Assembly: GCA_964016885.1 (NCBI GenBank)
Contig: OZ024742.1
Coordinates: 7,130,001 to 7,194,000, forward strand
Source: Eledone cirrhosa
Taxonomy: Eukaryota
Length of the DNA: 64,000 nt
Direction of reading: 5' to 3'
Shown here: one piece after another, positions 1 to 1,905 of the stretch
How positions within the stretch are numbered: the stretch's first letter is position 1
Layout: every line of letters begins with the position of its first letter
Made by a program: the position numbers and the translations under genes
Notes under the pieces: model-generated
The model's database searches: none
What the model was told of the DNA's origin: nothing
The model's input: only the letters and a program-made list of their open reading frames with translations

Positions 1-117
1 CGAGTAGGACACCGACGGTTGAGCTCAAGCCGTTTCGACGGCTAATTCTGGACTAAATCATTTAGTCCAGAATTAGCCGTCGAAACGGCTTGAGCTCAAC
101 CGTCGGTGTCCTACTCG
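1..117. repeat. Perfect palindrome: 58-bp arms (1-58 and 60-117) around a single C59; the left arm is cut by the window edge
   Basis: Checked base by base: CGAGTAGGACACC...CTGGACTAAAT-C-ATTTAGTCCAG...GGTGTCCTACTCG, no mismatches. Confidence 0.97.
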
Positions 118-201
118 TCCCTATTACCCACTCTACTACCCTAAGTATTAAGTACTTTGGTGCGTTATGGTCCACCTGGTTCCTTACCACATTTCCTTCG
201 T
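1..201. mobile_element. Probable Penelope-like element (PLE) terminal-repeat remnant in inverted arrangement, abutting a (TA)n tract
   Basis: Contains the 3' half of a hammerhead motif: CGAAA 81-85, ACGG/CCGT stem, palindromic loop TTGAGCTCAA, GTC at 102-104. Inverted terminal copies and hammerheads are established PLE features. The family assignment is inference; no RT or GIY-YIG coding sequence is present. Confidence 0.45.
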
Positions 202-248
202 TATATATATATGTATATATATATATGTGTGTGTGTAGAGAGAGAGAG
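202..248. repeat. Compound microsatellite (TA)n(TG)n(AG)n
   Basis: Seen directly. Confidence 0.95.
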
Positions 249-452
249 GTTATATTTAATTTGTTGGGATTCAACAAGCTTAAACATTTTTATAACTGAT
301 ATGAAGCACTCAACAGGTAGTGGAGTAAATACATAATATATTAATAAATGGAAACTATATTTATAAAACCATATTTATTTCATACAGGAAGCTCCAACCG
401 TTAAGGTTGTCTTTTTCCGGGTATGTCAATATTTATTTATAAAACAAATCTG

Positions 453-831
453 TATTTTATCTGATGAAAGCGAACCATAATTTGCCTTGGTTGCCCTTGA
501 AATATCTTCTATCTTCTATATATATATAAAAGCGAGGATGTGTGTGTGTCTGTGTACAACTTTGGATACCTAAGGCTTTTACAATTACCAACCGAATTTG
601 ACCAAATTTTCTGTGCACGTTTTCAAATCGACCCACGTTGAGCAATAAAAAATCGATATCAAAATTATCAATTTTGATGTAAGGGAGATAACCAACTTTA
701 TTGACAGAAATATAAACATCAGATTCATTTGAAGATAAATCACTAATATTATCGTCTGTTACTTGTTTATTCTTTGTTGCATTTCAAACCCCGGGCAACG
801 CCGGGTAAATCTGCTAGTGTATAATAAAATA
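453..831 (+). ncRNA. Type I minimal hammerhead ribozyme motif, split by a Helitron insertion (453-504 joined to 818-831); probably decayed
   Basis: Stem I TATTTTAT (453-460) pairs with ATAAAATA (824-831); core CTGATGA 461-467; stem II AAG..AACCA with TGGTT..CTT (468-498, imperfect); GAAA 499-502; stem III ATA (502-504) with TAT (820-822); cleavage triplet AUA 821-823. Confidence 0.7.
505..817 (+). mobile_element. Non-autonomous Helitron (313 bp)
   Basis: 5' TC start (TCTTCTATCTTCTATATATATATAAAAG; alternative start at 512); 3' CTAG at 814-817; GC-rich hairpin CCCGG-GCAACG-CCGGG at 790-805, 8 nt before CTAG; inserted between A504 and T818 with no TSD; internal (TG)n run. These are canonical Helitron hallmarks. 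Confidence 0.85.
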
Positions 832-872
832 AATATGGTTTTATAAATATAGTTTCCATTTATTAATATATT

Positions 873-1230
<358 letters not shown>

Positions 1231-1723: not shown

Positions 1724-1905
1724 GGGCGGTGAATTTGCAGTATCGGTGGCGGGTCGGACATGCTTTCCAGCATAGTTACGTCCCTTTACGATCTGAGTTC
1801 AAATCCTGCCGAGGTTAACTTTGCCTTTCATCCTTACGGGGTCGATAAAATAAAGTACCAGTAATGTACTGCATAATTGCTGGCCTTGTGCCTAAAATAG
1901 AAACA
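1724..1905 (+). mobile_element. tRNA-derived SINE with 12-bp target-site duplication
   Basis: TSD ATTATGTGTTTA at 1712-1723 and 1906-1917; A-box-like TTGCAGTATCGG 1735-1746; B box GTTCAAATC 1797-1805; central block TTTGCCTTTCATCCTTACGGGGTCGATAAAATAAAGTACCAG like the conserved core of several metazoan SINEs; 3' GGCCTTGTGCCTAAAATAGAAA. It resembles an abundant octopus SINE as I recall it (unverified). Confidence 0.85.

What the first reader, a model, noticed from the sequence alone, without database searches (positions are those of the whole stretch)
453..831. Cryptic hammerhead ribozyme that reassembles only when a Helitron is removed from its stem III loop
Seen: deleting 505-817 (TC...hairpin...CTAG, inserted at A|T) gives TATTTTAT CTGATGA AAGCGAACCA-loop-TGGTTGCCCTT GAAA TA|TGTAT A ATAAAATA. 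This has an 8-bp perfect stem I, both invariant core boxes, a very short stem III and an AUA cleavage triplet. Stem III ATATGTAT is one transition from the palindrome ATACGTAT. Established: PLE terminal repeats carry minimal type I hammerheads with short, palindromic stem III that work as dimers. Inference: a Helitron landed in the loop of a retroelement ribozyme. Because the insertion is in a loop, the core could still fold with a 313-nt loop 3, so motif scanners with loop-length limits would miss it. The two calls support each other's boundaries.
Basis: partly seen in the sequence, partly recalled or inferred. Interest (0 to 1): 0.75.

Follow-up and report, generated by a model that had tools for sequence, protein, structure and literature searches.

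The report
Helitron landing pad in hammerhead ribozyme
A small rolling-circle transposon splits one of thousands of copies of a retroelement's hammerhead (predicted self-cutting RNA) motif, and the same spot has been hit dozens of times in this genome, likely only because its DNA matches the transposons' preferred landing sequence, while this split copy is predicted not to fold into a working ribozyme.

Summary
Observation confirmed. Bases 505-817 are a non-autonomous Helitron (A|TC...hairpin-CTAG|T) inside a type I hammerhead; 7,933 exact uninterrupted junctions exist in the genome and stem II covaries across subfamilies. The host is the terminal repeat of a Hydra-clade Penelope-like element. 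New: the event is recurrent. 69 Helitron ends from about 12 end types sit at three bonds of stem III and the cleavage triplet, 45 at the window's bond. A control removes the mystery: the 13-mer A|TATATAATAAAA is filled at 0.76% inside and 0.76% outside this family, so Helitrons read primary sequence, not the ribozyme. One broken copy elsewhere looks retro-copied. Rfam misses even intact copies. The scan earlier noted Hydra-clade hammerheads and one Helitron inside a ribozyme repeat in this genome; none of the 16 notes shown described this hotspot. Verdict: new member of known kinds, modest interest.

The parts
245..383 (-). Inverted, 5'-truncated copy of the same pseudo-LTR: begins just 3' of the cleavage site and runs to the tail end
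   Evidence: blastn to L002, L012, L159; left end approximate
385..504 (+). Forward 5'-truncated pseudo-LTR of a Hydra-clade Penelope-like element, left part
   Evidence: 95-98% to the 3' repeat of ORF-bearing copies L159, L002
453..504 (+). Hammerhead 5' half: stem I 453-460, CTGATGA 461-467, stem II 468-498, GAAA 499-502, first half of stem III palindrome 502-504
505..817 (+). Non-autonomous Helitron (HLE1 type), 313 nt: 5' TC, hairpin 790-805, CTAG 814-817, no target duplication
   Evidence: longer relatives with the same ends carry Pif1 helicase pieces
818..831 (+). Hammerhead 3' half: rest of palindrome 818-822, predicted cleavage after A823 (AUA), stem I 824-831
832..868 (+). Remainder of the forward pseudo-LTR, 51 of 51 identical to four paralogues over 818-868
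866..1226 (.). (TA)n microsatellite, the usual target of Hydra-clade elements

Best explanation
This is a truncated terminal-repeat copy of a Hydra-clade Penelope-like retroelement whose hammerhead motif is split by a 313-base Helitron and is predicted to be inactive, at a bond that Helitrons hit repeatedly, likely because its DNA matches their preferred target sequence. Order of events (inferred from nesting): the retroelement put an inverted pair of truncated repeats into a (TA)n tract; a RepHel transposase acting in trans later pasted the Helitron between A504 and T818. Intact family members are type I hammerheads with a 2-3 bp stem III whose 8-nt palindrome would pair between two copies, so they likely cleave as dimers (known for this kind; not assayed here). 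Helitrons here choose A|T bonds followed by AT-rich DNA with TAAA 8-10 bases downstream; stem III plus the AUA triplet plus stem I spell that motif in thousands of copies, so about 1 in 100 TA-type copies has been hit. The insert splits the palindrome and, in this copy, is predicted to displace stem II.
For: Shown: empty sites 7,933; 52 exact Helitron-3'-end junctions at this bond, 30 of 30 fetched end in a Helitron-type hairpin and CTAG by eye; bond use 45 / 14 / 10 / 0 at offsets 0, -2, +4, +2 and none at four later A|T bonds, of 69; 35 complete left-half|insert|right-half structures from about 12 Helitron end types in different stem II subfamilies, no pair above 93% across insert and flank among 70 junctions. 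Target rule from flanks chosen by the Helitron alone: TAAA at +8 in 9, +9 in 2, +10 in 2, +6, +7, +11 in 0 of 33 non-microsatellite flanks, which predicts the rank of the bonds. Control: filled share of A|TATATAATAAAA 113 of 14,782 outside the main family against an estimated 35 of 4,557 inside; sister hammerheads are 2,639 of 14,669 empty control sites and 3 of 19 filled ones. TA-type palindromes are hit 7 times more than TG-type (47 of about 4,570, 4 of about 2,780), as G at +2 is rare in flanks (2 of 49). Ribozyme identity: 8 of 9 stem II pairs change on both sides, 0 of 500 shuffles reach the covariation score; palindrome centre TA 57, TG 35, CG 5, CA 0 in the first 100 rows (hand count). 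Host: RT end, CxCX5C linker, GIY-YIG with CxxC and CxH upstream of the same repeat (definition). Folding.
Against: No cleavage assay and no RNA data. Folding energies ignore tertiary contacts and Mg; intact monomers also score badly (median 7.2 kcal/mol, n=71) and two other split copies score as well as intact ones (6.7 and 7.4). The inside-family rate is extrapolated (20 of 27 fetched junctions pass the strict hairpin; TA share from 100 rows of one contig) and its denominator needs more matching letters than its numerator. A simple position matrix did not predict the empty +2 bond (score 7.6, above the +4 bond's 6.4); only the TAAA-spacing rule, read from 33 flanks after seeing the bond counts, does. 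Some junctions may be retro-copies of one insertion (L158). GIY-YIG Pfam scores are below cut-off (18-20 bits against 22.6). Rfam finds no hammerhead.
Confidence: 0.83

Rival explanations
1. The split hammerhead still works: the Helitron folds away as a 313-nt loop 3 and the core cleaves after A823, alone or paired with an intact copy.
For: All core letters and stem I are intact; stem I forms with probability about 0.9 in the excised 453-831 RNA; two other split copies have an active-fold penalty like intact monomers.
Against: Stem II base and stem III have probability 0.00 in the window copy, active fold 12.9-13.8 kcal/mol above the ensemble; Helitron ends add no stable stem III (-0.3 kcal/mol); palindrome is split; single minimal PLE hammerheads showed no cleavage and dimers only low cleavage in PMC4209133.
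Confidence: 0.06
2. Helitrons target the hammerhead as a structure, for example through a DNA hairpin or single-stranded bubble formed by the motif or during retrotransposition.
For: 3 of 52 flanks of the window's own Helitron family are at this bond, far above the share of all A|T bonds; all hits cluster within 7 bases at stem III.
Against: Equal filling inside and outside the family and no excess of sister hammerheads among filled control sites; TG variant, same structure, is hit 7 times less; one Helitron family prefers the -2 bond (7 of its 7 complete copies), which points to transposase sequence preference.
Confidence: 0.06
3. The many split copies come from a few insertions that the retroelement then copied as composites.
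For: L158 is an inverted pair with a Helitron 3' end in both arms; many junction loci show no left half within 1.5-4 kb.
Against: About 12 Helitron end types, three bonds and different stem II subfamilies among 35 complete structures; the window's composite has no close copy among 70 junctions, best 84%.
Confidence: 0.05

Closest known systems
Hammerheads in pseudo-LTRs of metazoan Penelope-like elements (Cervera and De la Pena 2014, PMC4209133; parts 1-2 of 4 read)
   Same: Type I, both core boxes, long stem II, short palindromic stem III, located in the terminal repeat, thousands of dispersed truncated copies, opposite-strand pairs a few hundred bases apart, subfamilies with compensatory changes.
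   Different: 8-bp stem I (4-5 bp there), 8-nt palindrome, conserved C.C mismatch in stem II, first stem II pair often A-U or G-U rather than G-C, AUA triplet; no interruption by DNA transposons is mentioned in the parts read.
Hydra clade of Penelope-like elements (Craig et al. 2021, PMC8557442; passages, section 11 and supplement searches)
   Same: C-terminal GIY-YIG, CxCX5C linker, CxxC and CxH motifs, (TA)n targets, canonical hammerhead, inverted 5'-truncated copy.
   Different: The hammerhead listed for Hydra-1_Obim has other stems; five short motifs of this family had 0 hits in the one supplementary file held, so this looks like another family.
Canonical non-autonomous Helitrons, HLE1 (PMC11417382 and Helraiser PMC4778049; passages)
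   Same: 5' TC, 3' hairpin and CTAG, A|T insertion, no duplication, AT-rich preference strongest on the 3' side.
   Different: Here the 3' preference resolves into a spaced motif (TAAA at +8 to +10) and produces a recurrent site in one repeat family; the passages read report only AT richness.

Membership tests
Type I hammerhead ribozyme (intact family members) | CUGANGA and GAAA core boxes, NUH triplet | tested here: met
   (114 of 127 copies CTGAYGA; partly built in, since many loci were fetched by patterns fixing these letters)
Type I hammerhead ribozyme (intact family members) | Three helices supported by covariation | tested here: met
   stem II 8 of 9 pairs change on both sides; stem III 2 of 4; stem I 1 of 8 (96.7% paired, mostly wobble changes); 54 hand-picked of 108 rows, one (L126) a split copy included by mistake
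Type I hammerhead ribozyme (intact family members) | Match to an Rfam hammerhead model | tested here: not met
   no hammerhead at E<=10 on one intact copy, none among the best 150 of 220 rows on 10 loci, none at E<=5 in the window
Type I hammerhead ribozyme (intact family members) | Self-cleavage | not testable with these tools
   no RNA run; copy ends show no clear peak at the site
Working hammerhead (window copy) | Stem II and stem III able to form; palindrome continuous | tested here: not met
   (prediction only)
Hydra-clade Penelope-like element | C-terminal GIY-YIG after RT, CxCX5C linker, CxxC and CxH motifs, no CCHH | tested here: met
   on L159 and L002, which carry the same repeat; motifs read by eye, Pfam score below cut-off
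Hydra-clade Penelope-like element | (TA)n target, pseudo-LTR with hammerhead, inverted truncated copy | tested here: met
Hydra-clade Penelope-like element | RWK and DKT motifs, RT phylogeny | not tested
   only the 3' part of the ORF was in the loci
Non-autonomous HLE1 Helitron | 5' TC, 3' hairpin + CTRR, A|T target, no duplication | tested here: met
Non-autonomous HLE1 Helitron | Ends shared with RepHel-coding relatives | tested here: met
   L171 and L178 share both ends and carry Pif1 2B domains; L182 shares the 3' end and has PIF1 E=4e-27 (4 of 6 pieces hit); no intact autonomous copy was sought

The most novel reading that the evidence does not exclude
Helitron-split hammerheads are a recurring class of working or mobile hybrids: in some copies the 0.2-3 kb insert folds away as a giant loop 3, the split core still cuts, and the retroelement re-copies such composites, carrying Helitron ends to new sites (L158). 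That would be a natural series of giant-loop ribozymes invisible to motif scanners and a route by which a retroelement moves pieces of a DNA transposon.
Probability: 0.08. Interest if true: 0.7.

Novelty: new member of a known kind. Interest (0 to 1): 0.33.

Why it matters
Both parts are known kinds and nesting of transposons is common. What is usable: (1) thousands of near-identical target sites act as a natural landing-pad assay and sharpen the Helitron target rule from 'AT-rich' to A|T with TAAA about one helical turn downstream, with family-specific offsets; (2) the palindrome series TA, TG, CG and GCGC is clean comparative support for dimer cleavage; (3) dozens of natural ribozyme knock-outs, one apparently retro-copied, bear on the open question whether Penelope-like elements need their hammerhead in cis. 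Seven literature searches listed no paper whose title or abstract start reports Helitrons recurring in hammerheads; subscription papers are not covered.

Tried and rejected
Rfam scans of the window, ten loci and one intact copy: no hammerhead. One search used a pattern one TA too short; its 11 hits are deletion variants and were not used; one search replaced it. Sequencing runs: no RNA holder listed; three contig sets of one sample add only the empty junction. Search for a pile-up of 5' ends at the cleavage site: 1,203 copies lack the G of GAAA at its place; 4 of 30 fetched start exactly at the site but look like one duplicated event; 6-9 of 100 rows by eye; none of the 22 truncated or otherwise incomplete copies among 190 starts at the site; no clear peak, and at least 7,933 copies read through the site. 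Folding z-score of an intact copy -0.86: no signal. Position matrix of the target failed to explain the empty +2 bond. Extension of stem III by Helitron ends: -0.3 to -1.8 kcal/mol, rejected. My first label 'Neptune-like' (recalled) was dropped for Hydra. Lunse et al. 2017 was not held and is known only from a review's passages (PMC6765202). Passages of bioRxiv 10.64898/2026.07.22.740005 and PMC13282606 held nothing on this point; preprint supplements were not seen.

Full report
1. Observation. The window is G000:C3:7130001-7194000 of a 3.0-Gb, microsatellite-rich animal genome; octopus-like by my recall and by earlier notes, not tested. A search with 400-504 gave 258 candidates, 40 scored, 97-100% alike. 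In the 29 other loci fetched, GAAATA is followed in most copies by TATATA, TGTATA or, once, CGTATA and then ATAAAATA; one has a short deletion, a few carry point changes and one has another Helitron at the same bond. The exact empty junction occurs 7,933 times. The insert has 2,190 candidates, 40 scored; its ends fall at A|TC and CTAG|T in unrelated flanks, 515 copies carry its exact 3' end, and longer relatives with the same ends carry Pif1 helicase pieces.

2. The host. L159 shows the repeat twice around a broken ORF with the end of an RT, the linker CNCRNKSNC and a GIY-YIG domain; L002 adds CxxC before the conserved E and CxH after the N. These match the Hydra clade as defined in section 11 of PMC8557442, as do the (TA)n target and the inverted truncated partner at about 245-383. 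Pfam gives GIY-YIG only below cut-off (2 of 4 pieces). Hydra-1_Obim has a different hammerhead.

3. The ribozyme. 127 distinct apparently intact copies were collected from the loci then held; 6 of them were split copies caught by the pattern. Stem II is 3 bp, a C.C mismatch (107 of 127), then 5-6 bp, with A-U, G-U and G-C exchanges. On 54 rows picked by eye from 108 with distinct stem II (one split copy included), 8 of 9 stem II pairs change on both sides and no shuffle of 500 reaches the covariation score 0.284; slid controls reach at most 0.123. Related sequences inflate this test, and core, stem I and stem III were partly fixed by the patterns that fetched the loci. The stem III palindrome centre is TA 57, TG 35, CG 5, other 3, CA 0 in the first 100 rows (hand count, one contig); a distant subfamily has ATGCGCAT (5 copies). 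All common forms self-pair, CA would not. Copies share ancestors, so this is suggestive, not a statistic. It fits the dimer model of PMC4209133 and the review PMC6765202. Rfam does not detect the motif. Cleavage is not shown; most inserted copies read through the site.

4. A hotspot. Two of 29 paralogues of the insert, chosen by the insert alone, lie at the same bond in other subfamilies. 52 exact junctions exist; all 30 fetched are Helitron ends. A looser pattern gives 69: 45 at the window's bond, 14 two bases upstream, 10 inside the triplet, none at +2 or at four later A|T bonds (40 loci fetched). 35 complete structures fall into about 12 end types by eye, 21, 9 and 5 at the three bonds. Among 70 junctions no two exceed 93% across insert and flank; the window's best is 84%.

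5. Why there. In 33 non-microsatellite flanks of the window's family TAAA lies at +8 (9), +9 (2), +10 (2) and never at +6, +7 or +11; 16 of 49 flanks are (TA)n. The three used bonds have TAAA at +8, +10 and +9; the unused +2 bond has it at +6 and +11. I saw this rule after the bond counts, and a plain matrix failed on +2. The decisive control: with the main family excluded by one letter, 113 strict Helitron ends precede TATATAATAAAA against 14,669 empty sites, 0.76%. Inside the family the estimate is 35 against 4,522, 0.76% (20 of 27 fetched TA junctions pass the strict pattern). Sister hammerheads make up 2,639 of the empty control sites and 3 of 19 readable filled ones of 20 fetched (longer inserts could hide some). 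TG-type copies are hit 7 times less than TA-type. Helraiser prefers AT-rich DNA on the 3' side (PMC4778049, passages). So the ribozyme is hit as a sequence, not as a structure (inferred).

6. Does the split copy work? Predicted no. In 453-831 stem I forms but the base of stem II and stem III have probability 0.00; the active fold lies 12.9 kcal/mol above the ensemble, against about 5-6.5 for three intact monomers. With a 6-bp stem I, 71 intact copies have a median of 7.2, and 6 of 9 split copies could be scored: 6.7, 7.4, 9.3, 10.2, 13.0 and 13.8, the last being the window. No RNA data were available.

7. A lead. L158 is a head-to-head pair whose arms (136 nt, 95% alike) each hold a Helitron 3' end, the 3' half of the hammerhead and the repeat, one arm running to the tail and (TA)n. 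This is the retroelement's own insertion pattern, so a split copy was probably reverse-transcribed (one case, inferred).

8. Verdict. Real, well-bounded nesting of two known kinds of element; recurrent but explained; function of this copy unlikely. New member of a known kind, interest 0.33. Literature searches that found no report of the hotspot: (listings and abstract starts only).

Noticed in passing
L158:1984-2530 (G000:C6:96193439-96193841): Inverted pair with a Helitron 3' end plus hammerhead 3' half in both arms; probably a Helitron-split repeat copied by the retroelement.
   Followed up: partly
L259/L260 and L261/L262 (G000:C1:34758889 and 35993197): Inverted pairs whose two arms both begin exactly at the predicted cleavage site; the two loci look like duplicates of one event.
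   Followed up: partly
L122, L123, L124, L126, L130, L131, L134: One Helitron family (5' TCTAAAC, 3' GGTGG..CTAG) uses only the bond two bases upstream in all 7 complete copies: family-specific target offset.
   Followed up: partly
L034 and L053; L038, L051 and L184: The window's Helitron family also recurs at near-identical sites in two other repeats.
   Followed up: no
window 3135-64000: 33-bp tandem array (93% matches in the first 3 kb), with frames broken by stops, preceded by about 150 codons of open frame from 2920-2984.
   Followed up: partly
window 1-226: Another repeat with a 118-nt near-perfect palindrome, also found beside the hammerhead repeat in L005 and L022.
   Followed up: no
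L085:2253-2327, L121:2132-2206: Distant hammerhead subfamily with stem III palindrome ATGCGCAT and a longer stem II.
   Followed up: partly
window 1730-1905: SINE-like repeat (family recalled, not tested); 1462-1661 is a 200-base assembly gap.
   Followed up: no
Helitron 5' ends: The 5' ends (TC then TATA..TAAAA) resemble the preferred 3' target flank; whether the transposase reads both alike was not tested.
   Followed up: no
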